64,000 bases of DNA. Origin: Catajapyx aquilonaris (lineage: Eukaryota). Below are positions 852 through 38,400 of this stretch, piece by piece (within the stretch, counting starts at the first letter, position 1; every line of letters begins with the position of its first letter). The notes below the pieces were generated by a model. It was given only the letters and a program-made list of their open reading frames with translations, ran no database searches and was not told the origin of the DNA. The stretch lies in assembly GCA_000934665.2 (NCBI GenBank), contig KZ538455.1, positions 1-64,000 of the forward strand, written 5' to 3'. The position numbers and the translations under genes are program-made.

Positions 852-1661
852 TTAGTACATCATTGTCGGACCATAAGCCATCGGTACAGCTTGTACCACA
901 GGGACCATCGCTGGTCGCATCGGGACCATCGCTGGCCGCATCGGCACTAATCCTGGTCTACCGTACATTCCAGGGCCAGCAGCCATCAGGAACCCTGCGG
1001 AAATTAAACATGCTACATGCTTGCATCTTAAATCAGAAGTTTAAAAATAAAGTCATTTGTAAAGAGGTTAGGGTATGAGTAGCCTACTTATACCACTTAA
1101 AGTAAAAGTGAAACTTTATAGTTGATTCCCTCCTGAACTCAGCAATATTATTAGCAACAATTACCGTCAAATGAAACGGGTTTGTGACAATATCCATATT
1201 GCTGATGTCATCTCAAAATAAGAAGGAATTTTTTGTTTGATTTGGAATGACTACACATACCGGTAATATTGAAGATTTTTCTTAATCTGCGTTCATAAAC
1301 ACTGTCCTTCCTCCATTAGGAACAACGGATCTTAATCCATGCAACCAAACTGGCGCAATCTTGTGTGCAGCGTGTGTCGCAATTCGTGCCAACAAAATCA
1401 GTATGATCACTAACTGAAACCACTTTTGTCACACTTGTATAACTCCAAATATTTGAGTGCGTATGTCCCTCAGTTTGATGCAAATTTCTTACTATTTCCG
1501 AGCTCGGTCTCTGCCTCCTCCTCTGGTGTTGGAGCACCAATGGTAGACACCACTAGACATGTAAGCACAAATATCTGCGAAAATATTTTTACAAAATGTT
1601 ATGCTACGGTATGTTATGTGATTATGTACCTTGTACTACTTACTCTTAGTTGTCCACACAT
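852..1661 (-). CDS. Secreted Pro/Met/Val-rich peptide precursor, ~80 aa
   Basis: Exons 1661-1644 (MCGQLR, gtaagt), 1574-1493 (IFVLTCLVVSTIGAPTPEEEAETELGN, phase 1), 994-852 (RFLMAAGPGMYGRPGLVPMRPAMVPMRPAMVPVVQAVPMAYGPTMMY*). Phases compatible; signal peptide plus acidic spacer. An alternative phase-1 acceptor near 1414 would instead give a 4-Cys tail. Confidence 0.7.
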
Positions 1662-4309: not shown

Positions 4310-4816
4310 TTATTTCCTGCGGCGGCGACCTAACAGAGTTAATACCAGTCCCTTCTTCTTAACTTCTTCCGATGATGAGCTGCTGGATGAACTGCTTCCT
4401 CCTAAAAATCAGAGAAGAGCAAAATAATTAAAAACGTAAAGTTGTAATGTCGACATGAAATGTAAAATTGAATTTTAGAAGAAATTGAATTAATAATTGT
4501 GTAATGTTCGAGTCAATTTTCTGGAGCAATAGCAATACCATTAGAGAAAAAAAATATCTGGAATGCAGCATTTCACATCTTGTAATCATACCAATGTGAT
4601 TCTCATCCCTCTTAGGTCCAGATCTTCCTAAAATATCACAAGTGACTAACCTTTTCGTGTTCCTAATAAGCCCAACAGTGCTGGAGCAGCGGAACACACA
4701 CTAATAGCAATAGCAACCATCAGGAGGGTCAACAACTGCAATGAAAAACCATCGTGTATGGGCACGTAATTAATCGAAGTTACAGTATGCCAAATGCTTA
4801 CCGCCTTGAACGCCAT
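4310..4816 (-). CDS. Small secreted protein with Ser9-Glu-Glu cluster and polybasic tail (63-75 aa)
   Basis: Exons 4816-4802 (MAFKA), 4735-4651 (LLTLLMVAIAISVCSAAPALLGLLGTRK, phase 1), optional 4627-4592, 4401-4310 (GGSSSSSSSSSEEVKKKGLVLTLLGRRRRK*). TATATAAA at 4903-4896. Confidence 0.8.
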
Positions 4817-6948: not shown

Positions 6949-8442
6949 TCAGCCTGCTCCAGGATGACTTTGACGCAGGTATTGCAACAGTCGGGTTGCC
7001 TCGTGAGGTTGATCATAAGGGCTGCAATCCAAGACCTGTCCAGTTTTAAAATAATACAATGTACGGTAATAATGACATTCATTTTGACCACCTTCGTTAT
7101 AGTGAGCTCTTTGCCCATACCCATCATAGTAATGAGACTGAGCTTGTGCTTTATGGTCTTTCAATAATTGTTGTAGTCTCATTGCTATGTGTGACCACCT
7201 GTTTTGGGCATCCTCCTCCGGATGATGGTTGGTGTCATCCGGTGCTGTGTTGTCATTGTGTTGATCTCCATCTGTGTAAATAAAAATATCAAGAGCCATG
7301 TGTAATTATTGCACCTAATGATATTACTTACCATGCAAACTTAAATAATTCACTGCATGTTCTGACATCTTATCGTTTTCGCTTGGCCGGTCAGCCTCCG
7401 GATCGTACCAGGAAGATAAATCCGGATGTTGGTAACGTGTGTCTTCCAACTCAGGCTCATACCATTGCGGTAAATCCGGTTCTTGATATTCTGAAGCCCT
7501 TTGTAGCTCATACCATGCTGATTGTTGATCTGATCTTAATGGTGCTGGCTTTTGATATTTTGATTGAGGTTGTTGAGGTTGACCTTTTGATTTGGGGTGT
7601 GGCTCTGGTGCTAACTTATGCTCCTGAAATTTTGTATCCGGTTTTTGATATTCTGAAGTCCTTAGTCGCCCATACCATGCTGATCGTGCACCCGATCTTG
7701 ATGGCTTTTGAGATTCTGAAGTCCTTAGTCGCCCATACCATGCTGATCGTGCACCCGATCTTAATGGCTTTTGAGATTTTGAACGCGGTTGTTGACGTTG
7801 ATCTTTTGATCTGGGGTGTAGCTCTGGTGCTAAATTATGCTCCTGAAATTTTCGTTCCGGTTTTTGATAATCTGAAGCCCTTAGTCGCCCATACCATGCT
7901 GATTGTGGCTTTTGAGATTTTGAACGAGGTTGTTGAGGTTGATTTTTTGATATGGGGTACGGCTCTGGTGATAAATTATGCTCAGGATATTTCAGACTTT
8001 CGGAAGACTGATGTGGCTCATGTAAATTCGGTTTTGTATCGGGTTCTTGCATCTGGTTTCGAAATGCTGAAGTTGCAGCTTCATGTGCATCATGAAATAA
8101 TTCCGTTTGGTGATGCTTGTACGGTTTTGACACTGGTGGATTTGTATGATTCAAACTATGGTTTTTAAACAAAGATTCTGTTGGAACTGGTTGGTTATTT
8201 TCCAACAATGACATGTCCAATGTTTTGGGCGATTCGACACGACCATGTTCATCATATTCAATGTCCGGAGAATACGGTTCTTGAAATTCTTCCGAAGAAC
8301 TCGAAGAAGACTCGTCGTCAAAATAGAAAGCTCCAGTATCGCTGGCGATAAGAGACACTAAAAAGAAAAGCTATTCAAGGTACATAATAATTGCGTAATG
8401 AGGACAGAGTGCAAGTCTTACCAGCACATTTGAGTTCAGCAT
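6949..8442 (-). CDS. Secreted repetitive protein (~460 aa) with N-terminal DDESSSSSSEE and SAWYGRLR / QEHNLAPEP repeats
   Basis: Exons 8442-8422 (MLNSNVL), 8370-7332 (ORF 7324..8358 frame, donor gtaagt, phase 1), 7271-6949 (ORF 6949..7299 frame). Signal MLNSNVLLFFLVSLIASDTGA; clear DNA tandem repeats 7480-7990. Confidence 0.85.
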
Positions 8443-9312
8443 TGTTTGGCACAGCACTTTGACGCGTTACCTTCAGAACTGAATGACATAATATTCTTAT
8501 CCACCTTTTGTGACGCACCACTACAGCTCTATCTGGCAACGCTCTCTGGAACTACTGGATAAAAATATTAATTATAGAAACATGACTGTGACATTTAAGG
8601 AGATTTTGCGACGTCATTGCTATATATAGGGGTATAGGAATTTAATTCGAGTACTTTATGAAAGTGTCAGGCTCGAGGTTTTAATGATTTCTGCATCGTC
8701 TCCTCGGTCTGTCATTCGGGGGGAATCTCATTTTCGCCGTTTCATTAACGCTTCCAAGTGTGACTAATCAGTGGAGGGGTTAAAAATGGGGTCGTTTGGA
8801 CCATCGATTTCAAGTCCAGATATGTCTTTGATGTGGGCGACATTGCAGCAGGAGAGAGAGAGATAAAAAGTACAGGGGGAAATATCAGGTGATGAACAAT
8901 GGTGACTCTTTTATTGTTGTTACTGCAAGGATGTAATGTACAGGCGATTATTGGGGCGTTGAGAATCGTACTGATGGCGTCCTGCAAAAGAGAAAGAAAT
9001 GGAGGGTAAAAAATTTGGCCGAACAAAGCAAGGAATTGCAGATATTCGGGGGCAACTTTGTCTGGTACATGTAATTATACGTGCCATTTCGGTTCATATC
9101 CAACAAGTACTTGATTATTAGATTGAACCTAAGGCTGCTATATACAGCAGAACAATATGTCATAGACTCCTTATAGTCAGAAAATGGTGTCAATTACGAA
9201 TTTTATACAATTATATCTGTCATCAGTTAAATAATTTACACACTTCTAATATTTCCTTGTGATAAAATAAGGGCAAATAAATTAATTTAAATGAAGTCTT
9301 ACTTTGTTATCG

Positions 9313-10250
9313 TCAGTGGTGTCCGTGACCTCCGTAGTGTCCACCACCACCATGACCTCCATAGTGTCCGCCTCCACCATGACCTCCATAGTGTCCGCCT
9401 CCACCATGACCTCCGTAGTGTCCACCACCACCGTGACCTCCGCCGTAGTGTCCACCGCCTCCGTGACCTCCACCATAATGCCCTCCTCCTCCGTGACCTC
9501 CTCCCCCATGACCTCCGCCGTAGTGACCTCCTCCTCCATGACCTCCGCCGTGATGACCACCCCCGCCGTGATCTACCCACATAGCAACAACCAACAATGT
9601 TTAAAAAAAAAACGAATGTCAGACCATCTGATCCAGTTATTGTTACCTATGCAGATCGACAATTCAAACAGCAATTTAGAACCGAACGGTAATGATGGTA
9701 TACGTCCCCATAATTATAATTTAAATGCCGCATAAATTTGGTCCAAACTGTCACTACAGTTTCGGAAATTGCATCGGTTGCGTCACCCCAATCGAACGTA
9801 ACTCATTGGAAACAATATATAATACAATGGGACTTACGCTGCGCTCCGATCATTGCGACACCCAGGCACATCACCAACATCATAACGACCTGTAACATAT
9901 ACATAAATCACATCAGGTTCAAGGGTTTGGATTGTTCTTCCCAGCAACCAATCGAAACAGAAGCACTAGTTGCTGAAGTCAACAGCGAGTCTCTGAATTA
10001 TTGTGTTATTTTATACGACTTTATTATTTTCATAGATTACAAGTTTCATACTCTCAGTAGTCCGGAAGTGGGTTAGGCAGCCGGGACATGCAAACAAACA
10101 TGCGGAGAAACCTTCACGTTTATACTATATGAGAGATTGAAATAGTACCTTAAGCACTTTTTGGTCAGATAATTTCAACTTTCGACTGTACAAAAATCTA
10201 ATAAAATTACACAACCGTCGAATCGCCATACTCACAATTTTGGACGTCAT
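9313..10250 (-). CDS. Secreted Gly/His/Tyr-rich peptide (GGGGHY repeats), 108 aa
   Basis: Exons 10250-10236 (MTSKI, gtgagt), 9889-9838 (VVMMLVMCLGVAMIGAQ, phase 1), 9572-9313 (HHGGGGHHGGGHGGGGHY...GHGHH*). TATATAAG at 10314-10307. Confidence 0.9.
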
Positions 10251-10683
10251 TGTTGCAAGTTCTTTGAGAGGACAGTGTACACAAGGCAAAACCCAACAGG
10301 AAAGGTCTTATATAGTTGGGGTATCCTTGGGTTGGACCAATGGCAAGGCCCGCCAAAGACGCTTCGAAAATGTGTGCAAAAAAAAATATTTGCGAGAGAA
10401 CAGGTTTGCACAGAGGTCATTGAGTGAGTCCCCCGTCACATACTCGTTTTAAGAGGGCCAAAGAGACGGCAAACGTGCGTCATGTCATGCACGTAAAATG
10501 TTGTGAAGCAGGTGAAAAACCAAGACTGGGAAGTTCATGGCTGAATATGCTTAAAAGTTGCGCGCAATTCTTGGAATAATATTGGACGAGGTTATTGAGC
10601 AAACTTACTTTTATTACGTCATTAAGGCGAGGTCGTATTTACATGGACTGTACATTGCAAAATTTTGGGATAAATTTATGATC

Positions 10684-11270
10684 TTAATCGTAGTCTCCAT
10701 GGTGGTGATGGCCACCGCCGTAGTGGCCGTGTCCACCGTAATGTCCATGTCCATGTCCACCATAATGGCCATGTTCATGTCCACCATAATGGCCGTGTCC
10801 ACCATAATGGCCGTGTCCGCCATAATGGCCATGTCCGCCGTAGTGACCGTGGCCATGTCCGCCGTAGTGACCGTGGCCATGCCCGCCGTGATGGTGATGG
10901 CCAAAATCTAAACAGAGCACCAAATGTCAGCAAGTGATTGAAACATATTGTATAATCAGAGCTTACCAGATTCACACATGGTGGGTATGATTAGCAAGAA
11001 TGCTGCAAGTAGTACAACGAAAATCTGAAATAAAAATAATTATTATTACAAGTTTGCAGTAAGGGATTCAAATAGTTTGCATGTTAAATATACAAGTATG
11101 CAAAATATACGAATAAATAAATTCTGAGAATCACGTTCACTTTTGGCGTATATCGGCAACAATGCAATAAGGAAAAGAGTACAGAGCAATGCTCCTAGAC
11201 TTTGCAATTACAAGTTATGCAAAATGGCAAATGCAGAAAAACAACGCATACTCACCAGTTTGGATGCCAT
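10684..11270 (-). CDS. Secreted His/Gly/Tyr-rich peptide (GGHGHY repeats), 98 aa
   Basis: Exons 11270-11256 (MASKL, gtgagt), 11024-10967 (IFVVLLAAFLLIIPTMCES, phase 1), 10907-10684 (DFGHHHHGGHGHGHY...HHHHGDYD*). TATAAA at ~11329-11324. Confidence 0.9.
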
Positions 11271-11689
11271 GTCTGCTGCTGGTTCCTTCCAAAATACAAG
11301 TTTTGGGCTGTTGGCTCCAGATATTTATACTCATCTTTTAGCAATAAAAAATTGTTTTAAGAAGCGTGTTAGACCAGCCTTGGATCCAGTTCTGTTAAAA
11401 TTCCCCCCCCAACTCAAAAAAAAGAAAGAAGTCACGCACTGCCTTCGGTTATTCTGATTTCACTTAGAGCAAAGTGCGTCATTGTTTATTTGGGTTAGAC
11501 GTCACATGGACCAAAGTAATGGTTCCTGCATGACCAATTAACATGGCTTCAAAACAGGTGCGTCAAGAACTAATTTATAGATTGTGGTGAGTTACGTTGT
11601 TTGTCTCAACAACCGGTTTTTATAGAAAACACCTATAACAATAATGCGGTTTGGAAGCGGGAATTCATTTTATGAAAAAAATCGAGTTG

Positions 11690-11770
11690 TGTTCCGACTT
11701 GGAGACGGAACAGCATAATGTTCCGGCTTGGAGACGGAACAGCATAATGTTCCGGCTTGGAGACGGGACA
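11690..11770. repeat. 29-bp tandem repeat, ~3 copies
   Basis: Unit TGTTCCGGCTTGGAGACGGAACAGCATAA. Confidence 0.8.
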
Positions 11771-12229
11771 CTGCAGTTTTGAAGCGATCTAAAAGTAGGT
11801 CTTGTGCATGACATTTTGCAAGGTGCGTAGTACTTTCGCTTTTATAGAATACTGTTGAGCTACTTTTGGGTGTGACGTGGGTTGTGATAGTTCAAGGGCT
11901 ATGTGCATGAAAATGGTCAAGATGCATAATATTTGCATAATTGTTTTCTTTTTGCATATGTCATGACTTGTCATATGCGGAGTGAGTGACCGATTTAGTG
12001 CATGTAGGTGCAATCACATTGACATATATTTGACTTTCACGATCGAGTCTTGACATTGTAACATGCTGACTTCGAAGGGTAATATGCTAAGTACAAAAAT
12101 ATATCGCAATAAAAAATCACCGAAAGTAAATACGGTACTGTATTTATTCCATCACTTCCACATTATACAATATTAATATAATGTACTGTTTTGCTCAGAC
12201 AAGATGTTCGCTCCTTCCTTCAGAAACTA

Positions 12230-12841
12230 CTACGGATCTTTCGGATTCAGGTAGGTCCAAATATCATCAATTTGCTGAAATTAAAATTAAAAACAAATTG
12301 TCATCAACTCATAATTTGCCTAAATGTTCGAACTTCTTGCGTTACTTCAAGAGGAAATTAATAAGTTTTATCAATTTTATTTTTGTTTCAATATCCAAGT
12401 TTGTCATATATAGATACGTAGACATGTGGCATAACTATTATAGTGGTTCACGTGCATTCCAAACAAAAAAAATGGAAAATATACTGCGATTATATCAATT
12501 ATGAATCCGAAATAGACAAAATCAACTCGTGTGTTTTCGCAAGGAATCAACATATAACATAAAACATAATACCGCATGAACATGACAGTTTCTTTCACTC
12601 ATAAATAAGCGTAGAGAAATGCATTATTAATCTATTATTTAAAAAAAATGTCAAGTATTGATACTTACGACACGTTCAGGTTTCTCATGGTCTGAAAAAG
12701 ACAATTAACAAAGGATTCAAAAAAGGAATCAACAACTAATCAACAAACAGTAATATATTAACGATTATTTACGTGCTGAACGAGCATCAACTGCTGCCAA
12801 CAACAGCAAGCATACGTATGTCATCACCATCAAAAGTGCCT

Positions 12842-12922
<81 letters not shown>

Positions 12923-12983
12923 GATGATTTTAAAGCCGGAATTGTATAATTTTGATGGCAAAGACACTCACCCATTTCATCAT
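12230..12983 (-). CDS. Tiny secreted peptide precursor, ~48 aa
   Basis: Exons 12983-12972 (MMKW, gtgagt), 12839-12773 (ALLMVMTYVCLLLLAAVDARSA, phase 1), 12691-12669 (HHEKPERV, gtaagt), 12274-12230 (QIDDIWTYLNPKDP*); AATAAA near 12145. The last exon is the least certain. Confidence 0.6.
12843..12922. repeat. (AAT)n microsatellite in intron 1 of the 48-aa gene
   Basis: Uninterrupted AAT run. Confidence 0.95.
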
Positions 12984-13463
12984 GTTTTAGCAGAGTGCTG
13001 TGTTAGGTGTCGTACAGTTCCGAACAAATCTCGCCAACAAAACTGAGCCAAGTACTTACCGATATTATATGTCCTTTCTGAATAGAGAATAGAAAATTGC
13101 AGAAAGATATGCCGACAGTATATTCCGGAGATAACTACGTGCTTGTACACCACGTCATGCAATAATATTGTGATGCGCACTTCATGTAACTGATATATGG
13201 AAAATAAAATGTTAAAGGTTGTGTCAGTGCACAGTTGTGGACATTGTTATGGATTCACACTACAGTGAATTTTTAATGAGTGACCCAGAATGCAGGACGT
13301 TTATTCCATTGCTTAGGTGCAATTTTCAGCAATTTGATTATATACTAGAAAGGACATGAAACTACTTTCGATGGTTTTTCGACTTCAATACTAATTACCC
13401 CCAACCATTTCTCAATTTTCTGAAACTGAAAGGAAAAAAATAATATTACAGTAATAAATTATT

Positions 13464-13853
13464 TTAATTATATAAGCATTCAACATCAACAACCGTGATT
13501 TTTATGCATGATGTCCCTAAAGATTTGAACTTCCTTTCGGATTTATTGCTGTTATTCCAAGAAGGAATTACTACAGTTGGTTTTTTTTTCTTCATTTTAT
13601 TGTCATTATGGAGGTAATACTCAAGGCCTGTTTCCACCGGCATGATATTTGAGCACACAATGAAAATCACAAAAATAGAGCACTGGCGGGGACGAGGAGG
13701 GATTGGCAAGAAAGGGTTTGTATTAATAATTTATTAGTACCCTATACAGTGTATAATAATAGTGGATATTATTAAGGTGTGCCAGCCTGCATTCTTAGCA
13801 TCTTATTAGGTCTTTTCGACTGTACTTACAGTAGACCACTATAAGCAGAGCAT
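13464..13853 (-). pseudogene. Possible disabled member of the secreted-gene cluster
   Basis: Putative exon 1 13853-13830 = MLCL*WST with a strong gtaagt donor; phase-0 exon 13682-13464 = CSIFVIFIVCSNIMPVETGLEYY... hydrophobic start. In-frame TAG at 13841-13839. Confidence 0.3.
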
Positions 13854-14229
13854 TATTTTCCTCACACGTCTTCTTGTCTCAACCAGTAACCGACAGTTTA
13901 TCTTAAACGTCGGTTAGTTCTTAAACCGTTAATTAGAGATCTCTGCAGTTAACTACGAGCAATCAGTACGTTTGAACCGTCGATAACCTATACAGTTAGT
14001 TCTTAGATTATTTTGTCAAACTTTCCGAACTGAAAGCTGGAACTGTGTTAGAAAAAATTACGACAGTTTTCTCAATTAAATCGTAATAATTTATTCTCAC
14101 ACATTCCTTTGTGGAATAGACACCAAGGTGTTTGCAATAAGGGCACCTGAAAATCAATGAACAAACATGAAGCGAACATGTCGACAAGAAATAATCACTA
14201 AAAAAAGTCGAGCTGAATAATTTACCTGT

Positions 14230-14661
14230 TTAATGGTGATGGCCATGGTGACCGTGGTGATGTCCGTGGTGATGACCGTGGTGATGGTGGTGACCGTGGT
14301 GATGGTGGTGGCCATGATGGTGGTGATGACCATGGTGGTGATCATGGTGGTGATCGTGATGATGATCGTGATGGTGATCGTGGTGATGCCCATGGTGGTG
14401 GTGATGCCCATGATGATGCCCATGATGGTGGTGATGCCCATGGTGATGACCTGTCACACACACAAATCTACTTAATATTCACCAACATTAGCATGCAATT
14501 ACAGCAATTACCATGATGGTCATGATGATGATGCCCTGCGTTGACCGTCAAGACAACAACGCACAGAATCAGAAGAAAAATCAAAGCCTACAACCAAACC
14601 ACGAATTAGTGTTGTTAGAGTGTGAGTTAACAATAAGCTGACTTACGAGTTTGGACGCCAT
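14230..14661 (-). CDS. Secreted poly-histidine peptide, 103 aa (mature ~81 aa, ~78% His)
   Basis: Exons 14661-14647 (MASKL, gtaagt), 14587-14512 (ALIFLLILCVVVLTVNAGHHHHDHH, phase 1), 14450-14230 (GHHHGHHHHHG...DHHH...GHHH*). TATATAAG at 14772-14765. Confidence 0.9.
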
Positions 14662-15305
14662 TGTTGCTCGGACTTAACTCGACAAAACTACCAGGATCTG
14701 TTCCAAAAACTGCAGGGAACTTCTCTCAGAGGAGATTGATGCCGTCCATCGAGGCACCTCATGTCTTATATACAACCAGGGGGGAATGTTGAGATGGCTT
14801 CCTGATTTTTATCCATGATCGAGCAATTATCACCGGTCCAAATTAGCTCACAGAGTTTGGTTCGGACCGATAGGAAGGCGTAAAATTGGGCGAATTCTTT
14901 TGCGAAAGCGAAAGTGGAGCCTTACTTGGAACGAATGCACGAAAGTTGCGACAATGTTTCTCAAATATCATAATTACAACTTGAGATTTGTTTATTTAAG
15001 CTATTTATTTATTGTGACGGGCCACCTGATGAGTATGCAATTTTCATATACGCACAGCATACAATTCAAGTGTGACTGGTCCATTGAACAGATCCAAATC
15101 AAATTTTTTAAATGTTAACTTTCAGAGTACAGAACACTCGTTTGGTAATTTTACCGGAATTAATCCAATTGCGAGGATTCCTGCCAGTCATTTCTTAACT
15201 AAAACCATGCCCAATTAATTACAACGTTCCCTTTCACTGAGAAGTACTCAACCGAAAGATAACATGACAATTAATTACGTAACACAAGACATGCTTCCGT
15301 GCTTT

Positions 15306-15590
15306 CCCCCCCCCCTTTTTGGGAGCAATTTTATGGTTTTATTTACTTGCACTTTATTTGGTTAGAAACTAACTGTTATTTATGTGAAAATAGCTGCTAT
15401 TGTAATTTAGCACCTTTCCAGCCATACAAACATCGCTTATCACCAGCNCCCCCCCCCCCTTTTTGGGAGCAATTTTATGGTTTTATTTACTTGCACTTTA
15501 TTTGGTTAGAAACTAACTGTTATTTATGTGAAAATAGCTGCTATTGTAATTTAGCACCTTTCCAGCCATACAAACATCGCTTATCACCAG
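15306..15590. repeat. Near-identical ~142-bp tandem duplication split by a single N (probable assembly artefact)
   Basis: Two copies of poly-C TTTTTGGGAGC...TTATCACCAGC with n at 15448. Confidence 0.75.
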
Positions 15591-16321
15591 CCTGCACATA
15601 ACCGCATTTTTTTTCTACCCTCGTAACACAGATAGTCCATTTTGCTCCCATGTTCAACCAGTCTATCTGCTCGGATCTATCTCCCCACTACACACATTAC
15701 ATGCCATCCACCCCTCTACGCACATATAATTGAACAAGGTGCATACAGAGATCATGGATCATCCAGGTTCATACACATTGGCATGGATAAATATTATCGG
15801 GTATCTCCAGAGAANGAGGGGGGGGGGGGTTATATTAAATGGCCCATCAACGTCCCCCCCTTTCCACATAGCCAAGTACAATTCGCTAGTTGATGTTCCA
15901 TTCAATAACACGAGAATCAGCGGTCGCTGGTCTTTGGTCCCAAGGGACTCAGCCTGCCAAATGGCCCATTTAATTTTAATGCCCTAATTTACTTGCCCAT
16001 TCTGGGTAGGAAAGCAGGGGGGAGTATTAAAATACAACGGAATTTCAATAAGCTGCCCAATTAACCGAGGGGGGGGGGGAAGGCTATATTTAAAATATGA
16101 TCGTAAATTATTATTGAACCAATAGATTCACATCACTATTGTTGCTGCCATCAAAAGAGCTGCGAGTGATATGGTAGGAAATAGCCCATCGGTATTGTTG
16201 ACATTTTTTTATTGTACGAAAGCGGGTATAAAAAGGGCGCACAGGCACAGCACAACAAAAACTCTATTGTCAACAATGGTTCTCAACAGCAAAAAGTTGT
16301 TCAGTATTTTTCAATGTCATG

Positions 16322-17053
16322 TTAGTGGTGATTGTGCCCTCCGTGATGACCATGGCCGTGTCCGTGATGGTGATGGTGACCGTGACGGTGATGGTGCCCG
16401 TGCCTGTGGTGGTGGTCGTGGTTGTGTTCGTGGTCGTGATGGTGCTTGTGATTGTGCCCGTGGTGGTGGTGGTGGGTATGACCTGCATTCGCAAAAGGAA
16501 ACAGTTCACTTTCCCCCCCAGCAGTCCTTCAGTGAAAACAAATTTTTTAAAACACAAAAACCTACCGTGATAACTGTGTCCGTGGTGGTGGTGACCCGCA
16601 TTGACCACGACCGAAACCACGCACAGGATGGCCAACAATACCAGAACCTGTAATCACATCAAATGTGCATATACGCATCCATATTTTTGCTAAACACTGA
16701 GTGTTTGTACAGAGAAGTTGCCATTTTAGCATTATATAAATATTAGCTGATAATATCAGCTAATTTCATCAGCTAATCGAAATAGCAGCTGATGAACCCA
16801 GCTCGCTAATTTCATCAGCTAATCGAAATAGTAGCTAATGAAACCAGCTAATATGATCAGCTAATTTCGTCGTTTGATAACCAGTGAAAGTATGCAGCTT
16901 TATGCCAATTGCAGAACTCAGCAAAGTTTCGGACAACACAATGCAACAAGCAGCACTCCAGATTTTCACCTTGATGGAGTGCTGATGGTCCTGTCCGGAA
17001 CCTTATTTTTTGGGAGGGAATTCATGAAAAATTCCTACCGCTTTGGAAGCCAT
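16322..17053 (-). CDS. Secreted His-rich peptide, 85 aa (mature ~63 aa, ~63% His)
   Basis: Exons 17053-17039 (MASKA, gtagga), 16647-16566 (VLVLLAILCVVSVVVNAGHHHHGHSYH, phase 1), 16482-16322 (GHTHHHHHGHNHKHHHDHEHNHDHHHRHG...GGHNHH*). TATATAAG at 17158-17151. Confidence 0.9.
16740..16870. repeat. CAGCTAAT-type minisatellite in intron 1
   Basis: Repeated GCTAATTTCATCAGCTAATCGAAATAG units. Confidence 0.65.
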
Positions 17054-18119
17054 GCTAATGAATCCTCTTGAAGACACTTAAAAAGACACACCGTACTTGA
17101 ACTTCACTGCACTTGATGAGACTGTGCCCTTGTGCAGTCAGCACCGGGCACTTATATAGAAGGCAGTGACTGTGATGAGGTGGTTATGTTCCTCTCCAGT
17201 GAACAATTTGCAGCGCAAGACAAAGGTGGTCACCCCATCCCCGGTCTCTGCTCAGAGAAGGACTGTCCAAAAAAAATGTATGATTTTCGAACTAAGAAAA
17301 AGTCGAGCTGCCTTGCCGTGGGAGAATCTTGTCCTGATGTGACAGTGAAAGTCAGCCGGAACACATTAACTGGACTTGTTCAAAATCCAGCATTTCAGTC
17401 AAATACAGGGTGGTGCGTACTAAAAAATGTTACTGTCTAAGGTCTACATGAAAATTATTTGGCTGGAAAAGAGTGTCAGAAAATCGGACAATAATGAAGT
17501 ACAAAATTATTTGGCTCTTTTCAAGTTGGAAAAATTGCTTCTGAAGGCACATATTTCAATTGAAATTTGAATTAATCCAATACTGAAAGGCAATTTAAAT
17601 TATTTAGAAATTGTAGGCTTACTTTTAACATAAAAAGAAAAAATAATTAAAAATTGAAATCACAAAATGAAAATAATAAAATAAAATAAATCGTGACACA
17701 GAAAATTACAACTAAATTGATTATGAAATTGGAAGATTGAAATTAAAATAATTTTTAAATTCTTTATATTACAATTAAATCATAAACATAAAATTACAAT
17801 GTTGCAATAATTATCATTCAAATATTAATTGAATTTATTACAAAACTTTTGAATTGCGCTTAATTACTCGAATCAAATTCTTTAATAAAAATTCAATTGT
17901 GAGATCAACTAAACTGCTTAATTTAAAATTAAATTTCCTCGATTTAAAATTAAATTTATTAGACAATACCAGTAGTAAAGAAGGGTGTAGATACACTTCC
18001 TGAGTGTGAACTTGGGCAGTGTAACACCCGGTGTCGTTTACAGTACCCAATTTTCTGCATTGCTGAAATGCACCTTAATTACCTGCAATTTTGAGCGTAG
18101 TACTGTTATATACCAACTT

Positions 18120-19730
18120 TCACTTCTTCCTTTTTCTTCCTGCAATTAAAAAGGTTTTTGGGGAGGATTCGGTGGATTAGCAAAACTAAGGCGGTGTCAG
18201 GGTCGGATTTTTTGAATTGTTGGGAGAAAGCAACACTACTTGGTTTCACTTTTCCTCTCTCTTTATTTTTGGTGAGATCATTGGTACCTATAGGTTGTTA
18301 GATCATTTACCTTTCATCAGCGACGATACCCTGTGAGGGGAAGATCAGGATTTAATTGGTCACTGCTGCTATTCTGACCGTTTTGAATGGCCTTACCTTG
18401 GCCGTAACCCCTGTTGCCTCCGGAACCTCTGTTGCTTCCAGAACCTCTGTTACTTCCGGAACCTCTGTTGCCTCCGTATCCTCCGGAGTCGCCGCCGTCT
18501 CCGTATTCGTTTCCGTCTTGGCTTCCGTAATTGCTACCTCCTTGATCGCTGAAACTGTAGCTGTTTTCACTCTCACTGCCCTGTGTTCCGCCTCGTCCGT
18601 TACGTTTCCGGCCGTTTCCGTAACCACCGGAACTTACACCGGATATTCCATAACCAGATCCGGAACTTCCATAACCAGATCCGGAGTTTCCGTAGCCTCC
18701 ATAACCTGATCCAGAGTTTCCGCCGTACCTTCCGTAACCAGAGTTTCCTCCGTAGCCGCCGTAACCAGCAGAATTTCCGCCGTAACCGCTACCCCCGGAG
18801 TTTCCGCCGGAACTAGAACCAGTTCCTGAATTTCCGCCGTAACTAGAACCAGATCCTGAATTTCCACCATAACTAGAACCAGATCCTGAATTTCCACCGT
18901 AACCACCGGACGATCCGCCGTAACTTCCGTAACTTGATCCGGTGTTTCCACCATTTCCGGTGTTTCCGTAACCGGAGTTTCCGTAACTGCTTCCGGTTCC
19001 CCCGCTGTTGCCGCTTCCTACGCTGTTGCCGTAATCGCCTCCGTCGTTTCCCTCGAAGTTGTCGTCATTATCAAACCCGTCTTCTCCGGAGTTTCCGGAG
19101 TTCCCGTTGTTTGTGGAATAACTTGTTCTGGTCCTTCCGGTACGAGTACGACCACGTCCTCGGTTGCCTCCGTCGTCGTCAAATCCTTCGTCAAAGTTTT
19201 CGTCATCACCGTCGTTATTGTTGTTGTTGTTATTGTTGCCTCCACCACCGCCGAAGTCCTGCCCTTCATCATCGTTGTAACCTGACACAAAGAGTCGCCA
19301 ATATTAATTAATTGTTGCCTTGGTGATCTCAAGTTACGAATTGTAATGTCTCATCATTGTTTTTCAATAGTTGAAACAATGCACTGATTGCAGGTGCAAA
19401 ATTTCTCCAATTACAAGTGGTAAAGTGTTAAGCTTACCACCGTCGTTACCTCCATCGTTGCCACCGTCATTGCCACCGTCGTCTCCAAACCCGTCGTCTC
19501 CCTGTCGTCCTGCAAAAATTTATGATTAAACACACAAAAAATTATTAAATTATTATTATAGATTACACCTACCTTGACCTGCCACTGCTCTGCACAACGT
19601 TGCGACAACACATATCAGCAATATCTGAATGAAAAAAAACGCGCTATTAGTCGTCTAATGGTGCAATTAAAAAGGAGTACCCAGCTTGGTGATAATCGAC
19701 TCCACTTACATATCGCACCATATCCGGCAT
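18120..19730 (-). CDS. Secreted Gly/Ser/Asn/Tyr-rich structural-type protein, ~349 aa
   Basis: Exons 19730-19710 (MPDMVRY), 19624-19573 (ILLICVVATLCRAVAGQ), 19509-19438 (GRQGDDGFGDDGGNDGG..), 19281-18397 (ORF 18317..19288 frame), 18139-18120 (GRKRKK*); all phases compatible. TATAAAAG at ~19808-19801. Confidence 0.85.
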
Positions 19731-21309: not shown

Positions 21310-24300
21310 TTAAAATAATAAGGGCTGAGATTTCTTGCCACCTTTGGTTTCATCCAACTTCGGGTTGTAAACTGTTGTAGGTGGTCCGTGATCTGAAAAT
21401 TAAAATTATTGTAAATTAAAATTGTAATTAAAATAAATTTAGAGCAAATACCTGGATCGTCAGCGTCGTTATCTGCTTTCACTAACTCTCTGTACACATC
21501 CTCGTCAAATTGGTCTCGTTTCTTCTTAGGCACTGGAATACCAAAATATATTATTTTAATGTCATACGCAACGTTACGATGTACTTACGAAAATTGTCCA
21601 ATTGGCGATCAATTGCTTTGGTATATTTCCTCAACGATTCTTCTGATAAGTCATCCTTCCGTCTGTTCCTCGTTCGTTGCTTGGATTCGGCCGAATTGAC
21701 GTCGTCGTTTTCGTAGTCATCGTCGTCCGAATGTCGTCTTCCACCGGTGCGGTACTTTCGGTACGGTTCTATAAATCGAACTCCAGTTATTCCATCTTTG
21801 ATTGGGAATGCAAGGTACGGGTTGTAATAGGAGGAAATAGGAGGGTAAATGATGCGTCGTGGTTGTTGACGGAATATGGGTTGTTGTCCTTCATCATTAA
21901 AATAATTACCGTGTGGTCTTCGGTCGTCTCTCCGCCTGTCGTCGTACCGGTCGTCGTACCGGCGTCGGTCATCATCATAGTGCCTGCGACGAGGCCGGTC
22001 ATCATAGTCACGACGTCGATCGTCGTAACGGTCATCCTCACGACGATCATCGTAGCGTGGACGATCGTCGTCCCTGCGACGGTCATATCTGGGACGATCG
22101 TCATAATCGCGTCGGTCATCGTCGTGGTGTCGGGGACGTTCCTCCTCGTCATGATGCTGAGGACGTTCCTCCTCTTCGTCATGGTGTCGATTGTCTGGAT
22201 GATCTTCCTCCTCGTCGTTCCTGTTAACATCCGGATGCTCCTCTTCCTCTCGTTCGCCTTCAGGATACTCCGGCTCGTCGTTGGATGGAACTTCATCGTC
22301 GTCGTTTTGTCGTCGGTGTCTCGATTCGCTTTCTTTCTCATCCTCAGGCTCTTCGCTTCTTTGTTGACGACGCGTCGACTTTTTGGGTTGCTCTTCCTCC
22401 TCTTCCTCCTCTTCGGTTTCAGGCTCCTTAGGTTTTTCCTCTTCTTTCTCTTTGTCGTCTTCCTCCTCTTCTTCCTCCTCTTTCTGCTTCCGTGATTTTT
22501 TGGCCTTTTTCGCTTTGGATTTTCGACCTTTTGGCTTCTTTTTTACTTTTACTTTCGCAGGCTCCTCTTCCTCCTCTTCCTCCTCGTCATCTGTATTTTT
22601 CTTCTTCTTCTTTTTGACCGGTTCTGTTTCTTCCTCTTCCTCTTCCTCTTCCTCCTCCTCCTCGTACTGTACTTTCGTCTTTTTCTTTGGCTTTGGCTTC
22701 TTCTTCCTCTTTATTTTAATTATTTTAACAACCGGCGGTTCTTCCGGTTCTTCATCTTCGTACTCGTATATGACAGGTGCCGCCGTCGGTTGTGTTGCGT
22801 ATGTCCTAACTGGCTGTGAAATGTACGGAAGTTTAAGACTTTCGTTCTCTGGTATGGCTGAATTTACAGAAGGAGCTTCCTCGTAATTCCTATAAGGCTG
22901 CTGTTGCTGTTGCTGTTGTCGTTGTTGTATCTTACGAATCCTAAGTTTAGGCCTGGTTGTGCTGGCCGCCAGTTGCAACTGTTGATTATTATTAAATTGC
23001 AATTGATGCTGATTATTATTCTGATGCAACTGCAGTTGTTGGTTACCGTCGTAAACCAGAGGTTGTTGGTTATTGTTGTAACTGGTCGGTTGATGGTTAT
23101 TGTTGAACGATGCAGGTTGCTGATTATTGTTAAAATTTGTCTGTTGCTGATTGTTGTTGTACCGCCTAGGTTGCTGCTGGTTATTCCCCCGAATCTGTTG
23201 TTGATTGTTGATACGGAATGGTTGCCTGTTGTTGCGGAAATTTTGCTGATTGTTATTACGGGTCTGCTGCTGCAGAGGCGTCTGGTTGTTATTGTATGGC
23301 AGTGAATTACCCTGCCGCTTGTCATAATCCTGCCTCCTTTGATGGAACCCATTGTAGGCGTTTCTGAGCGCATTGTTGTACTCATTGTTGGACGACTGGG
23401 CTGTTATTGGCTGGCTCTCGTTTTCTGAAACCCCGCCCACTTTTGAGCCAAACTCCAAGCTGGCTATGTGGAAGTCTCGAAAATCATCGAAGTGAACTCC
23501 GTGGTCCAACACTGTGTGATCAGTCTTGGGCGTTACATCGGGTTTGGCAGTGACAATCCTCTGAACGGAAGCAGAAAATGGGTTGATCGAAGCTGAAGTG
23601 ACAGGAGACGATGCAGAGAACGCGAGTGTCGAAGGATAGAACTGGTTGTAACTCTGGCCCGGAAATCTAAAACCAGGTGTTGGATCCCGAAGTCTTGATA
23701 TCACCGACAGTGTGTATGGAAAAGGACCTTCCTGGGGTGGAAGAAGCTGCTGTTGTGGACGTCGTTGAAACTGCTGATTTGGTTGAAACTGTCGAGGTAC
23801 AAAGTGTGTTGGACGAGGTGACAAGTGAGCTGGACGAGGTGACAAGTGAGCTGGACGAGGTGACAAGTGTGCTGGACGAGGTGGAAAATGTGTCGGATTA
23901 ATTGACAAGTGTCCTTGCTGAGGTGACAAGTATGCCGGATTAGGTGACAAGCGTGTTGGATTAGGTGACAATTGGGCTAGATTATGTGACAAGATTGCTG
24001 GATTAAGTGACAGGTGTGCTGGAGTAGGTGGACGAGGTGGAAAGCGTGTTGGATTAGGTGACAAATGTTGGGTTGGACGAAATTGTTGTTGAGGTCTTCT
24101 AGGTGGTTCAGGTGAATATTCATCACCATTGGCAGTAGGCGGGGTGTGAATAAAAGGCTGACGACCTGGTAAGCGCTGACCAAACTCACTGTCTGAAGAA
24201 GGATGTCTTTCATCCACAGTGACCTGTGGTTGATACTCTTCTGACCCCTCACTTGTGACTGGTTCTGGTGGAGGTCGAAACTGTCGATATATTGGAGGCG

Positions 24301-25445
24301 AAGGAGGAGGTGGAGGCAATGGTCTTGGTGGTGGTAAAGGTCGGGGCTGAGGTCTGGTCGCCACTTGACCTTTGACAGGAGGACGGTTCTGTCGACGTCC
24401 ATACTCCGGCTCCACTTTGTCCTCCAGCTTCTTCCTGGCTCCTTCCTCACGCTTTTCCTCTTCCTTCTTTTCCTTCCGTCTTTCTTCAGCCGTGTATATC
24501 TTCTTGGAAGACAAGTGCGACTCTTCAGGTATTGTGTTCTTCTGTAGCTCTTCGTCGTGCTGCTTACTTGTTAAAAATTGACCTCTCCTGTAAAACACTC
24601 TGGGCACTCTTGTCACTTTCTGGCTTCTTGTTGTAGTTCTGACTTCTGTTGTTGTTGCTTCTGTTGTTGTTGAAGTGGTAGTTGCTAGTGTCGTTGCTGG
24701 TGGTGTCGTTGTTGTTAGCACGACTGAAACTGTGGGCAATGCAACATCCAACTCTGTTACCACTGTTAGCAAACTGCTTCTAAAAGGAGTGGACTGCGTT
24801 ACGTAAACTTGGGTATCATCCGATGTTGTAATATCCGGATCACTTTCTAAATCCTTACTCTTCACCATTGGCTTTCCATCAGAAGGGTAAAAATTGGAAT
24901 TATTTCGCGCTGTCAAAACTGGCACAACGTGGTTTCGCGTGTCACTGAACTGGAGCGTGGTGAAGACAACCTCGTTTCTTGGAGTAACTTCCTGTTGAAT
25001 CAACCGTGCCATCCGTCGCGTATTATTATTGACATCCATAAGTGCGTAGGCAGGAACACTCGCGTTACCACTCAGCTGTTCAGGTGACCGACTTTCTGCA
25101 AAAATTTTGAGTGTAAATTACGACCCACTGTGGTTAACAAAACCTCACCTTTTTTAGCCGTTGATCCCCACGTACCAGCTAAGATAAGGCTGACCAAGCA
25201 TAGCCACAGGAGCTGTAATTGCAAAATTGTCACGTACTTATTGCACACAGGTGACAAAACGAAAGTGCGATGTAATTTTACGCTAAAAGACAATTTTACT
25301 CACTTGCACATTTTATAATGCGATTAACATAATGAGTATTGGCCTGATTGGATTATCCTATTGTAATGTTTACTTTCAGAATAAGAAGGGGCTTCAACTA
25401 CACCCAAATCCTCACCCATTTGGTCAGCACACAGATTGCAGACAT
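21310..25445 (-). CDS. Large secreted intrinsically disordered block-copolymer-like protein, ~1254 aa
   Basis: Exons 25445-25416 (MSAICVLTKW), 25212-25149 (LLWLCLVSLILAGTWGSTAKK), 25095-21589 (includes ORF 21551..25039), 21532-21452, 21392-21310 (..GGKKSQPLLF*); canonical GT-AG, phases compatible. TATAAAAG at 25547-25540. Confidence 0.9.
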
Positions 25446-34898: not shown

Positions 34899-35426
34899 AT
34901 GGCCGGAAGCAACATCGTGGCGGAATGGCTTCGTTCACTTCAGTTGGGGCAGTACGCGGATTCCTTCCTGGACAATGGTTACGACGATTTGGAGATATGC
35001 AAGCAGGTGGGCGAGCCGGACCTGGACGCGATTGGGGTCTTCAACCCGCATCATCGCACGCGGCTACTAGACGCGGTCAGAGGCTTGAGAGAAGAAGGAG
35101 CCGCGTCTGTGTATTTCACTCTGGAGGAAGCGGCAGCTGCTGTGGCATCCGTGGCCGAAGAAGAGGACAGCCCTGAAGAGGACTCGCAGCAGCTGCAGCC
35201 TCCGGTTCCATCATCGTCATCATCATCTCGTAGCAATAACAACAAGGCCAATAGGACACCCACGCCGTCCGAGAGTGCGGGAAGCAATGTGGACAACTTC
35301 TTGGACGAGTATGAGGAAGGGAAGGCAGAGTTGGTCAAGATACCCAAAGTGCAGCTCAGGGAGCTGTTGAAGGATAGGATCGGACAGGATGGCATCAGGC
35401 TCACGTGTCTGCCCTACTCCACATCC
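34899..35426 (+). CDS. SAMD5: First coding exon of a SAM-domain protein, SAMD5-like (N-terminus of an arthropod SKIP/SASH1-type gene)
   Basis: MAGSNIVAEWLRSLQLGQYADSFLDNGYDDLEICKQVGEPDLDAIGV...VYFTLEE...LVKIPKVQLRELLKDRIGQDGIRLTCLPYS matches, from memory, both conserved SAMD5 blocks; ends at a phase-0 gtaagt donor at 35427. Symbol means 'SAMD5-like'. Confidence 0.9.
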
Positions 35427-38400
35427 GTAAGTGCATCCTTATAATATCTAGTTAGGAAAGAGTCCCGAGAAAACCCTCACGCCAGCACAATTCATCCGCT
35501 GTGAAAATTCGAGTGATAGTTGCTGATTGGGATGCAGTATTTGCGTTTAATTAGGCTCACTAAAGCGGACAGGAGGAAAGTAGTGGCCATTAAACTATTA
35601 TGGGCGGAGTTGTGTGCCATTAGCCGAAAGGAAAACAAAGTGTGGGCTGCTTCAAAGAGGCGGGATAAGAGCGATACTTTGTTGTTGTGATTTTTCCAGT
35701 TGTAGAGGTAATGCAACAATGGCACCCAAACTATTACCCAACCGTAAGAAGAGCAACAATGGCCCGGTTCTTATCAGCAACGGACACTCACCAATCCTGA
35801 ACAATACCCCCCCAAAAAAGCTGGGAATGTCACACTGCCTATTAGGTCCAATTGTCACCCCCCACTAAAAAAAGATGCAAATGAAGCAGCCCACGCTGCG
35901 GATGGTTAGAAAATTTAAACCAATTAACATCGATTCCGACCCCAGCAAAAATTAGGCAACTGTCGCGACATCTTTTTATTGTTATATGGTAAGTATCGTA
36001 TGAAAATCGGGTGGTTCAAAACACCATAAAAATTTGAACCTATGTTCGGTCTCGAAATTGGCACAATTTTCAATCGATTGTTCCAGATTATTTTTTGTGG
36101 ACATTCCGATGTGATTCATATCGGTAACAATGCAGTCATTATGGGGTATGTATATAAGAGGCCCAGGCCTCCGGTTTATGAATACTCGGCAGGCGTTTAT
36201 TTAAGCATTCAGGCTGCGTTTATGGACATTTATTGCAAGGGCCCCCCCGGAAGAGAGTCTGGGGAAGTTTTTATTGGGAAATCAGATTTAAATGATGAGG
36301 TTATGAACAGGGAAAACGCCTGCATAATGAACGCAATGAAAAATCTTGTGCAGTTGACAATCAACGCGGATCGTGTAGGGACATCCAAGCAATGCAAAAA
36401 TATTTCTGCAGATGGTGCTGGCGGATGAGAAGTTTATTTTTTTTGCCATGGACTTTAAAAAAAGGGGGGTATTGCCGCATAATTAATTAGGCATCGATTT
36501 ACTTCGTCTCCGTACTACCCAGTGCTCTTTGTGCCGCCTGTGTGTGTAATTCGCCAAAAGGGGGATATATACAGACAGGGGGGGGGGGGGNTTTGCGACA
36601 TTCGTAGCTTGCAATTGCGCGGGTTTGATTGATTTTGGGGGCATGGCGAAAAAACAAGTCCTTTTCAGTAAATTAAAACTTGTCTGCCTCGGGTTTGTAG
36701 AGAACCAGTCCGGTGTATAATTTTATGCGGGCCCACACACACATATCGGTTGTCAATATTTGATCGTTTTCTGGGGCTTCAACCCCCCCGAACTTGTTTA
36801 TCTGACATACTCTATACCCTCGGAATTAATTTCTCGTAAACACCACGGGTCAGGGCAAGTACCGACAATTTTTATGCGAAATTTTAAATATGGCACACAG
36901 TTAATTGTTCAAGTGAGCAAGTGGCATGAAAGGTCGGTTCGGTTCGATGACACTGGCCTTCCTGCATGGAGATTCTCAGACTCAACGAGGCTAACAAAAA
37001 CAAACAAATCTTATCAAGGAAGTAGATCTCACCTGCAAAAAAAAATGGCAGCGAGTTCAGTGCATTCACTGTATATTATTAGAAAAAATTTGCAAATTTT
37101 TTGACTTTTAAGAAAAGTAGAGCGGACAACTAATACATTCGGCAGACATATTAGTTTAAAATGAGCTGCTTAAAAATAAGCTGATGCCAAAAATTAACTT
37201 AATATACATTGGTTCGATATTGCCAATATTTTTGTTTGCGAAATATGGGTATGCCACAAATTTACATCGGTACAAGCAACAGTTGCGATCACTTCCGTTA
37301 CAAACTGTGTGCAGTTTCTTACTATTTCAACATGACAATGAAGTGTTTTCGTACAAGAGCCATGATTTTGGTGCTATTTATGGATGGTTAGTGATGCGAA
37401 TAAAAGGAAGCGCGTCCCGCCAGATGGGGCGTTTAAACACCGTTTTGCCAGGATCAATTTCAGGCCGCATGGGCGTGAAAAACGCACGCAACTGGCAGCC
37501 TGAAATTATAACCTGGGCACTGCAGATTACAATGCTCATTAAGTGTAATAGGTTTGCCTTTTGCGATAAAATGACACACGATCATATATGATGTGTATAC
37601 CCACAAGAGAATGGTACGGCCAGGAAAAAAAGTAACACAACTAATCCTGGAGTATGCCAAAACCGGAAGTGACTGTAAGGACACAAAGAGGGAAGAAGTG
37701 ATGGATGGGACACAGTTTGGGGTCTGTAGCAGGGAGTCCTCTTTGTCAGCTTGACCGGAAGATACTACTGGACGAACTTTTTCTAAAGTCCGTCGGTGCG
37801 AAACCGAAAGAAGAGACCAAACATAACAACTCCCCCTAGAATTCTCCATGGGAATGGAACAAAAAGGACGACAGGACTTCACGCTTTGGGGAGGAAGGAG
37901 AAAAAAAGAGAGTAAAATTCAATAGGAATGGCCGCTTTAGAATTTTAACTTAGCTCTCTGTACACCTTTCTGAGAAAAGAGAATGCTCATGGAATTTTTA
38001 AGAGATGGGAAATAACGTGCAATTTGAGTCGGTTTAGCTGGAAATTTTTGGGCGGTTTGGCTATGGGTTGAATGTAAATGCCATACCGCTGCGGGTGTCG
38101 CAATTTTAGGCTGTAATATTGTAAGCCTCGGACTTGTACCTGGAGGCTCATTTACCTTCTCTATGTACTGCCTGGGTGGTTTCAGAAGGTAAATTATTTA
38201 GAAGACACACAGTAATGCGCTACGCTGGTCGCTGGTGGTCATTTTATTATTTTAAAACAGTTCAATATCGAGTCGGAATTTAGACCCAAGACTGTAAATG
38301 CCATTTGTAAGTAATTAACACAATGTTGGCCTTCTCTACGTATAAGGCGATTCTGCGTCCAAATGTAAAACAGGAATTTAAAATTTATGACAATATTAGA

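What the first reader, a model, noticed from the sequence alone, without database searches (positions are those of the whole stretch)
9313..17053. Four paralogous M[AT]SK-x peptides forming a graded histidine series (~25, 37, 78, 63% His)
Seen: four genes share a 15-nt first coding exon (MTSKI, MASKL, MASKL, MASKA), identical 0/1 intron phases and a TATA box (TATATAAG in three). Mature repeats differ: GGGGHY (22 His/87 aa), GGHGHY (28/76), (G/D)HHH(HH) (63/81) and mixed HxH (40/63), all hand counts. MAFKA at 4816 may be a more distant member. Inference: tandem duplication kept the signal module while the repeat exon turned over, giving tunable metal-coordination density or Tyr cross-linking. 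A graded material is one reading; shepherin-like Gly/His antimicrobial peptides are another.
Basis: partly seen in the sequence, partly recalled or inferred. Interest (0 to 1): 0.8.

Follow-up and report, generated by a model that had tools for sequence, protein, structure and literature searches.

The report
Extreme histidine-rich secreted peptide family
A forceps-tailed soil hexapod carries five small secreted-protein genes made almost wholly of histidine and glycine, three of them 63-78% histidine, which most likely harden or cross-link its cuticle but could also be antimicrobial or metal-holding peptides; their function is untested.

Summary
Four intact minus-strand genes have GT-AG introns, TATA boxes, a 5-codon M[AT]SKx first exon and mature peptides of 25, 38, 78 and 63% His. 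A fifth copy (75% His) lies on another contig inside a copper-monooxygenase array. The host is a japygid dipluran. Codon use shows protein-level constraint, not decayed microsatellite. The family reading needs qualifying. TATA and a short phase-0 first exon are generic here (cuticle-protein controls, five neighbours). Signal-exon similarity exceeds background only among the three poly-His genes. The two Gly/His/Tyr genes are tied in by the rare first exon and by composition. So there are two subfamilies, not a shown gradient, and an unrelated spliced gene sits in the middle. Best reading: disordered, pH-switched His/Gly matrix proteins of cuticle, cross-linked by quinones and/or loaded with Zn, like TcCP30, BmorCPR152 or worm-jaw proteins (about 0.5). 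Holotricin-3-like antifungal peptides are the main rival (about 0.25), strongest for g1. No function, tissue or metal was tested. This is a new variant of a known kind, notable for its extreme His content.

The parts
9313..10250 (-). g1: 3 exons (10250-10236, 9889-9838, 9572-9313), 108 aa; mature 87 aa, 66% Gly, 25% His, 8% Tyr; 7 HYGG motifs
10307..10314 (-). g1 TATA box (TATATAAG), 64 nt upstream of ATG
10684..11270 (-). g2: 3 exons (11270-11256, 11024-10967, 10907-10684), 98 aa; mature about 74 aa, 43% Gly, 38% His, 12% Tyr; 7 GHGxY (x = His), 8 HYGG; AATAAA at 10615
11322..11329 (-). g2 TATA box (TATAAATA), 59 nt upstream of ATG
12127..13068 (-). gX: unrelated 4-exon gene for a 48-aa secreted peptide (coding exons 12983-12972, 12839-12773, 12691-12669, from 12274), not His-rich, lying inside the cluster
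   Evidence: spliced 360-nt contig with GT-AG joints and a poly-T loose end in run X5; translation
14230..14661 (-). g3: 3 exons (14661-14647, 14587-14512, 14450-14230), 103 aa; mature 81 aa = 63 His, 13 Gly, 5 Asp; His runs mostly of 3 or 5; AATAAA at 14095
14765..14772 (-). g3 TATA box (TATATAAG), 111 nt upstream of ATG
16322..17053 (-). g4: 3 exons (17053-17039, 16647-16566, 16482-16322), 85 aa; mature 63 aa, 40 His, 11 Gly, mixed HxH; AATAAA at 16213
17151..17158 (-). g4 TATA box (TATATAAG), 105 nt upstream of ATG
4310..4816 (-). g0 (MAFKA): neighbour with 5-codon first exon, 0/1 phases and TATA; 63 aa, Ser-rich with a basic tail, no His; membership undecided
18317..19721 (-). g5: neighbour, 366-aa secreted Gly/Ser/Asn/Tyr-rich protein (10 YGG), same promoter and exon plan, no His, no Pfam hit in its long exon
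852..1661 (-). gA: neighbour, 80-aa secreted Pro/Met/Val-rich protein, same exon plan
6949..8442 (-). gB: neighbour, secreted low-complexity repeat protein with a 7-codon phase-0 first exon; 3' end approximate
21340..25445 (-). g6: neighbour, about 1200-aa secreted low-complexity protein (Thr, Pro, Gln/Asn, Glu/Lys and Asp/Arg blocks); 3' end approximate

Best explanation
A lineage-restricted family of small, secreted, disordered His/Gly matrix proteins of a japygid dipluran, in two subfamilies: Gly/His/Tyr repeats (g1, g2) and near poly-His (g3, g4, the C1053 copy). Shown: gene structure, signal peptides, composition, coding constraint, paralogy of the poly-His three. Inferred mechanism: the epidermis makes them for cuticle; in an acidic secretory vesicle they are soluble polycations (computed net charge +20 to +53 at pH 5), near neutrality they lose that charge (-3 to +1 at pH 7.4) and condense in the matrix; imidazoles (and Tyr in g1/g2) are then cross-linked by laccase-made quinones, and remaining imidazoles bind Zn or other transition metals. 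The poly-His members would serve the hardest parts, such as mandible tips or forceps.
For: They sit among six other secreted low-complexity genes on one strand, including a Gly/Tyr-rich protein. They share the TATA plus short phase-0 first-exon plan with cuticle-protein genes of this genome (21 of 30 loci). AlphaFold2 single-sequence models have no secondary structure (pLDDT 51 and 61), consistent with disorder though weak. The charge switch is computed. Precedents, from passages read: TcCP30, non-R&R, 21% His, laccase-2 cross-linked in rigid cuticle (PMC4440208); Bombyx His-rich cuticle proteins of 6-45% His with distinct RNAi phenotypes (PMC8062583); Nereis and Glycera jaw proteins of 27 and 40 mol% His with GYGGH-type motifs (PMC9999432); squid-beak GHGxY repeats drive pH-triggered coacervation (PMC6884462), and g2 has 7 GHGxY.
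Against: No expression, tissue, moult-timing, metal or cross-linking data. No R&R or other chitin-binding motif is visible in the sequences. The short-first-exon plan is common to many secreted genes and does not point to cuticle specifically. In squid x is Val, Pro or Leu, whereas here it is His; the three poly-His genes lack the motif and have 0-1 Tyr. g1 matches the antifungal holotricin 3 closely in length, Gly content and pI. The listing and the empty result gave no report of metal-enriched cuticle or His-rich proteins in Diplura.
Confidence: 0.5

Rival explanations
1. Gly/His-rich antimicrobial (mainly antifungal) peptides of haemolymph or body surface, like holotricin 3, tenecin 3 and shepherins, acting by uptake into fungi or by holding Zn/Cu; most plausible for g1 and g2.
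For: g1 mature: 87 aa, 65.5% Gly, pI 7.56 versus holotricin 3: 84 aa, 64.1% Gly, pI 7.41, and shepherins 66-68% Gly, pI 7.28, with GGH motifs (PMC5031766 Table 3); g1 has 17 GGH. g3, g4 and the C1053 copy would begin G-H-H, fitting the x-x-His Cu/Ni site (motif recalled; cleavage inferred). Small, secreted, tandem, fast-changing.
Against: Near-zero charge at pH 7.4, though holotricin 3 shares this. No kappa-B-like site in 0 of 5 upstream regions, with very low power (0.05-0.11 expected each, motif recalled). His content of 63-78% is far above holotricin 3 (13 of 84, my count from the table in PMC5715947). Neighbours look structural rather than immune.
Confidence: 0.25
2. Components of a gland secretion (glue, egg or spermatophore stalk, cuticular gland product) that sets by pH-driven condensation, rather than of cuticle.
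For: The cluster holds chemically diverse small secreted peptides (basic g0, Pro/Met gA, gX) as gland gene clusters often do (own knowledge); the same charge switch would serve a glue.
Against: No tissue data. No Cys or phosphorylation-type Ser repeats in g1-g4. The analogy rests on recall.
Confidence: 0.12
3. Extracellular or secretory-pathway metal buffers or copper carriers, for instance supplying or guarding copper monooxygenases.
For: Up to 63 imidazoles in 81 residues. The fifth copy lies on the opposite strand inside a tandem array with 4 DOMON hits and copper-monooxygenase N- and C-terminal hits (the N-terminal hit is below its cut-off).
Against: Only 1 of 5 copies has that context, so it may be a chance insertion. 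Metal-response cores occur upstream of g1 only (two sites, one palindromic; 7 of 458 control windows have two or more) and of none of the other four.
Confidence: 0.1
4. The His tracts are decayed (CAT)n/(CAC)n microsatellites and the genes are spurious or dead.
For: Such microsatellites are very common in this genome (7169 pattern matches, 5485 in the control). Splicing of g1-g4 is predicted, not observed.
Against: 211 of 212 CAn codons are His; longest identical-codon run 2-5; g3 and the C1053 copy share 86 of 99 aligned residues, 39 with different codons against 13 changed residues (repeat alignment is ambiguous); TATA, signal exon and polyA signal are in place.
Confidence: 0.03

Closest known systems
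TcCP30 of Tribolium (PMC4440208; abstract and passages read)
   Same: Small secreted low-complexity His-rich protein without R&R motif, predicted disordered
   Different: 21% His with 36% Glu and 19% Arg, 171 aa, single exon; cuticle location and laccase-2 cross-linking shown there, untested here
His-rich cuticular proteins of Bombyx scales, such as BmorCPR152 (PMC8062583; passages read)
   Same: A set of cuticle proteins spanning a range of His content (6-45%) with different roles, so a His series is already known
   Different: Mostly RR-2 proteins with a chitin-binding domain; maximum 45% His against 78% here
Polychaete jaw proteins Nvjp-1, Nai11527 and Glycera MTP (PMC9999432, PMC13120676; passages read)
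   Same: Signal peptide plus Gly/His repeats; Nvjp-1 36% Gly, 27% His, 7% Tyr resembles g1/g2; MTP 49% Gly, 40% His resembles g2; paralogue families
   Different: 30-53 kDa against 7.6-10 kDa; annelid, so convergent; MTP lacks runs longer than two, unlike g1, g3, g4; metal binding shown there only
Squid beak HBP-1/-2 (PMC6884462; passages read)
   Same: GHGxY repeats (7 in g2); His protonation switch
   Different: x is Val, Pro or Leu in squid and His here; g1, g3, g4 have no GHGxY; HBPs have 10-16% His and an Ala-rich domain
Holotricin 3, tenecin 3, shepherins (PMC5031766, PMC5715947; passages and tables read)
   Same: Length, Gly fraction, pI and GGH/GGGH repeats close to g1
   Different: Lower His (about 15% in holotricin 3), no regular HYGG repeat; activity shown there, untested here; no counterpart of the poly-His subfamily

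Membership tests
CPR cuticular proteins (R&R) | Chitin_bind_4 domain (PF00379) | tested here: not met
   The genome-wide PF00379 search listed 66 matches, none on the window's contig; the mature regions are wholly His/Gly repeats
Non-R&R low-complexity His-rich cuticle proteins (TcCP30 kind) | Signal peptide, low complexity, His-rich, disordered | tested here: met
   (signal peptides judged from hydrophobicity; disorder from low-confidence models)
Non-R&R low-complexity His-rich cuticle proteins (TcCP30 kind) | Present in cuticle, moult-timed expression, laccase-2 cross-linking | not testable with these tools
   needs tissue RNA, proteomics and assay
Gly/His-rich antifungal peptides (holotricin 3, shepherin) | About 30-85 aa, 60-70% Gly, GGH/GGGH repeats, pI near 7.3 | tested here: inconclusive
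   met by g1, partly by g2 (43% Gly), not by g3, g4 or the C1053 copy (16-18% Gly)
Gly/His-rich antifungal peptides (holotricin 3, shepherin) | Antimicrobial activity; haemolymph origin or immune induction | not testable with these tools
   promoter scan had too little power
Squid-beak HBP coacervating proteins | Four or more tandem GHGxY with hydrophobic x, or two with a spacer | tested here: inconclusive
   7 GHGxY in g2 but x = His; 0 in the other four
Zn/Cu jaw matrix proteins (Nvjp-1, MTP) | Gly+His dominated secreted repeat protein | tested here: met
   Gly+His = 81-94% of each mature peptide
Zn/Cu jaw matrix proteins (Nvjp-1, MTP) | Sequence homology, and localisation in a metal-rich tool | tested here: inconclusive
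   homology searches were blank but uninformative for low-complexity queries; localisation not testable
One paralogous family g1-g4 plus C1053 copy | Signal-exon similarity above unrelated signal peptides | tested here: inconclusive
   met for g3/g4/C1053 (0 of 120 background pairs), borderline for g1, not met for g2; rare shared exon 1 supports all five

The most novel reading that the evidence does not exclude
The poly-His subfamily (63-78% His) is the protein matrix of a chitin-poor, zinc- or manganese-hardened layer on japygid mandibles or forceps, with the Gly/His/Tyr subfamily forming the coacervating, cross-linked transition zone. Arthropod zinc layers are described as protein plus zinc with little chitin and zinc on more than a quarter of residues (PMC8410824, passages), which calls for exactly such proteins; my searches did not surface a paper naming their genes. 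This would give gene candidates for arthropod metal-hardened cuticle, in the sister lineage of insects.
Probability: 0.15. Interest if true: 0.75.

Novelty: new variant of a known kind. Interest (0 to 1): 0.42.

Why it matters
Secreted Gly/His repeat proteins are a known kind in cuticle, jaws, beaks and immunity, so the class is not a surprise. What stands out is the His density: 75-78% exceeds the 45% called the highest for insect cuticle proteins in the papers read. The peptides are 63-87 residues with three to nine residue types, so they can be synthesised, making metal loading, pH condensation and antifungal action directly testable. If they prove to be the matrix of metal-hardened dipluran tools, they would supply missing genes for a long-studied material.

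Tried and rejected
No RNA holder was listed for 9200-17200. The one RNA-like run laid (X5) had no contig over g1-g4 exons; a hole proves nothing, so expression of g1-g4 is open. Protein searches with the third exon of g2 (3661 candidates, 0 at E<=0.001) and of g3 (0 hits) were blank; low-complexity correction makes this no evidence of novelty. Atlas searches gave one 0.79 hypothetical cluster for g2 and nothing for g4. Pfam was not run on g1-g4 themselves. AlphaFold2 gave no fold, so the idea of a polyglycine-II bundle (Gly every third residue over 14 triplets in g1 and 8 in g2) is neither supported nor excluded, and no fold search was run. A metagenome scan for the first exon gave 23 loci, 0 of 23 His-rich (at most 6 His per 30 residues); one carries the same exon on an unrelated secreted gene, so MASKL alone is not diagnostic across species. 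The metal-response-element lead at g1 was rejected. Upstream 150-nt similarity was at most z 2.8, uncorrected, so no promoter tree was built. A loose poly-His pattern was swamped by microsatellites, so further poly-His genes with other spacing may be missed. The single GHYGGHG match outside the window (1 of 11, contig C4563) lies in a short frame without a gene plan and was treated as chance. For controls, 30 of 66 cuticle-protein matches were fetched, 21 gave a model, 3 ambiguous ones were dropped and 18 used; the script looked only for phase-0 donors. mis-framed gX in the background set; one search corrects it. ARAGORN found no mitochondrial tRNA. PMC8423362 and PMC12024784 held nothing relevant. 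No supplements were consulted.
Full report
Observation. Each has a 15-nt first coding exon, a phase-0 intron, a hydrophobic second exon, a phase-1 intron and a repeat exon, all GT-AG, translating to 108, 98, 103 and 85 aa. Mature His counts are 22/87, 28/74, 63/81 and 40/63. TATA boxes lie 59-111 nt upstream; polyA signals follow g2, g3 and g4. The tracts are coding: 211 of 212 CAn codons in five mature regions encode His with both codons mixed, and no identical-codon run exceeds five, although (CAT)n microsatellites abound in the genome. Splicing of g1-g4 is predicted, not observed.

Host. The window is contig C821 of a 285.6-Mb genome. The SAM-domain exon at 34899 has insect SAMD5-like proteins as best named hits (76-80%). 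The odorant-receptor family gave one weak match. Mitochondrial COX2 is 92% identical to Japyx, 86% to Occasjapyx, 80% to Parajapyx and at most 77% to other named taxa. The host is a japygid dipluran, a soil predator with pincer cerci (own knowledge).

The family is larger and less uniform than reported. A His-repeat pattern gave 9 matches, 3 in g3 and 6 on contig C1053. That locus has a TATA box, a MASKL first exon, a signal exon and a 77-aa mature region of 58 His, 14 Gly, 5 Asp, sharing 86 of 99 aligned residues with g3. It lies antisense within an array of DOMON/copper-monooxygenase genes. A broad first-exon pattern gave 14 matches against 11 for the control; only 5 had TATA plus signal exon, and these are the five His-rich genes. 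Since the fifth was found from its repeat, this link is not circular. Signal-exon scores, however, exceed all 120 background pairs only among g3, g4 and the C1053 copy; g1 is borderline and g2 is at background. g1 and g2 are tied to each other by HYGG repeats, with 10 of 11 genome matches of that pattern in them. Two subfamilies therefore describe the data better than one graded series.

Context. The four lie in a minus-strand cluster of ten secreted low-complexity genes between 852 and 25445. One, gX, sits between g2 and g3 and is bridged by a spliced, poly-T-ended contig of run X5; it encodes 48 aa and is not His-rich. Five of the six neighbours share the 0/1 phases and four of those a TATA box, and 21 of 30 cuticle-protein loci gave a TATA plus short phase-0 first exon, 14 of the 18 kept having three codons and none M[AT]SK. 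The shared plan is generic; only the first-exon sequence is specific. None of the three long neighbour ORFs scanned has a Pfam hit.

Mechanism. Computed pI is 6.7-7.8; net charge falls from +20 to +53 at pH 5 to between -3 and +1 at pH 7.4. Single-sequence AlphaFold2 models show no secondary structure. I infer disordered, pH-switched imidazole polymers. The best fit is a cuticle matrix role: TcCP30 shows that a non-R&R His-rich low-complexity protein is cross-linked by laccase 2 in rigid cuticle (PMC4440208); Bombyx uses cuticle proteins of 6-45% His with distinct roles (PMC8062583); worm jaws use Gly/His proteins of 16-40% His with Zn or Cu (PMC9999432, PMC13120676); squid GHGxY repeats coacervate on His deprotonation (PMC6884462), and g2 has seven with x = His. 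Arthropod zinc layers are protein plus zinc with little chitin (PMC8410824), which suits the poly-His members. Every functional step is inference. Against it, g1 matches the antifungal holotricin 3 in length, Gly content and pI, and the two subfamilies may do different jobs. Promoter scans neither support nor exclude immune or metal control.

Novelty. Sequence searches were blank but uninformative. No paper in the library holds both Diplura and histidine-rich; the listing showed none on metals in dipluran cuticle. The kind is known, including ranges of His content; the extreme density in so small a secreted arthropod protein is the new element. Earlier notes report other His-rich secreted clusters in this genome (unchecked), which suggests such proteins are not rare here. 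Verdict: real, a new variant of a known kind, interest 0.42; 15% chance of the metal-hardened-tool reading, worth 0.75 if true.

Noticed in passing
window 12127-13068 (-): Small spliced, polyadenylated gene for a 48-aa secreted peptide; its first intron is mostly a (TAA)26 microsatellite at 12843-12920. No family search was made.
   Followed up: partly
G000:C1053:13500-34455 (L057, L058, L061): Tandem array of DOMON/copper-monooxygenase genes (4 DOMON hits) with the fifth His-rich gene antisense inside it, and a single-exon ionotropic-receptor-like ORF at 35774-37816 (Lig_chan hit below cut-off).
   Followed up: partly
window 15306-15592 and 15815: The 144-bp tandem duplication with an N is skipped by a DNA contig, and 169 letters are missing at 15815: probably assembly artefacts.
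   Followed up: yes
window 34899-35426 (+): First exon of a SAMD5-like SAM-domain gene.
   Followed up: yes
window 10050-10099: Fragment of a high-copy repeat in g1 intron 1 (depth 430 in that bin, many loose ends).
   Followed up: no
window 21554-25117 (-): 1188-codon exon of a secreted block-copolymer-like protein with Thr, Pro/His, Gln/Asn, Glu/Lys and Asp/Arg/Tyr blocks; no Pfam hit.
   Followed up: partly
L060 (G000:C4563:3518-5236, -): 573-codon ORF of Glu/Gly/Ser/Lys 9-residue repeats, another low-complexity protein.
   Followed up: no
L075 (G000:C5905:579-3047): Frameshifted ND2-COX1 copy, probably a nuclear mitochondrial insertion.
   Followed up: no
L113:1201: An unrelated metagenome contig has TATA, a MASKL first exon and a signal exon on a protein that is not His-rich.
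   Followed up: partly
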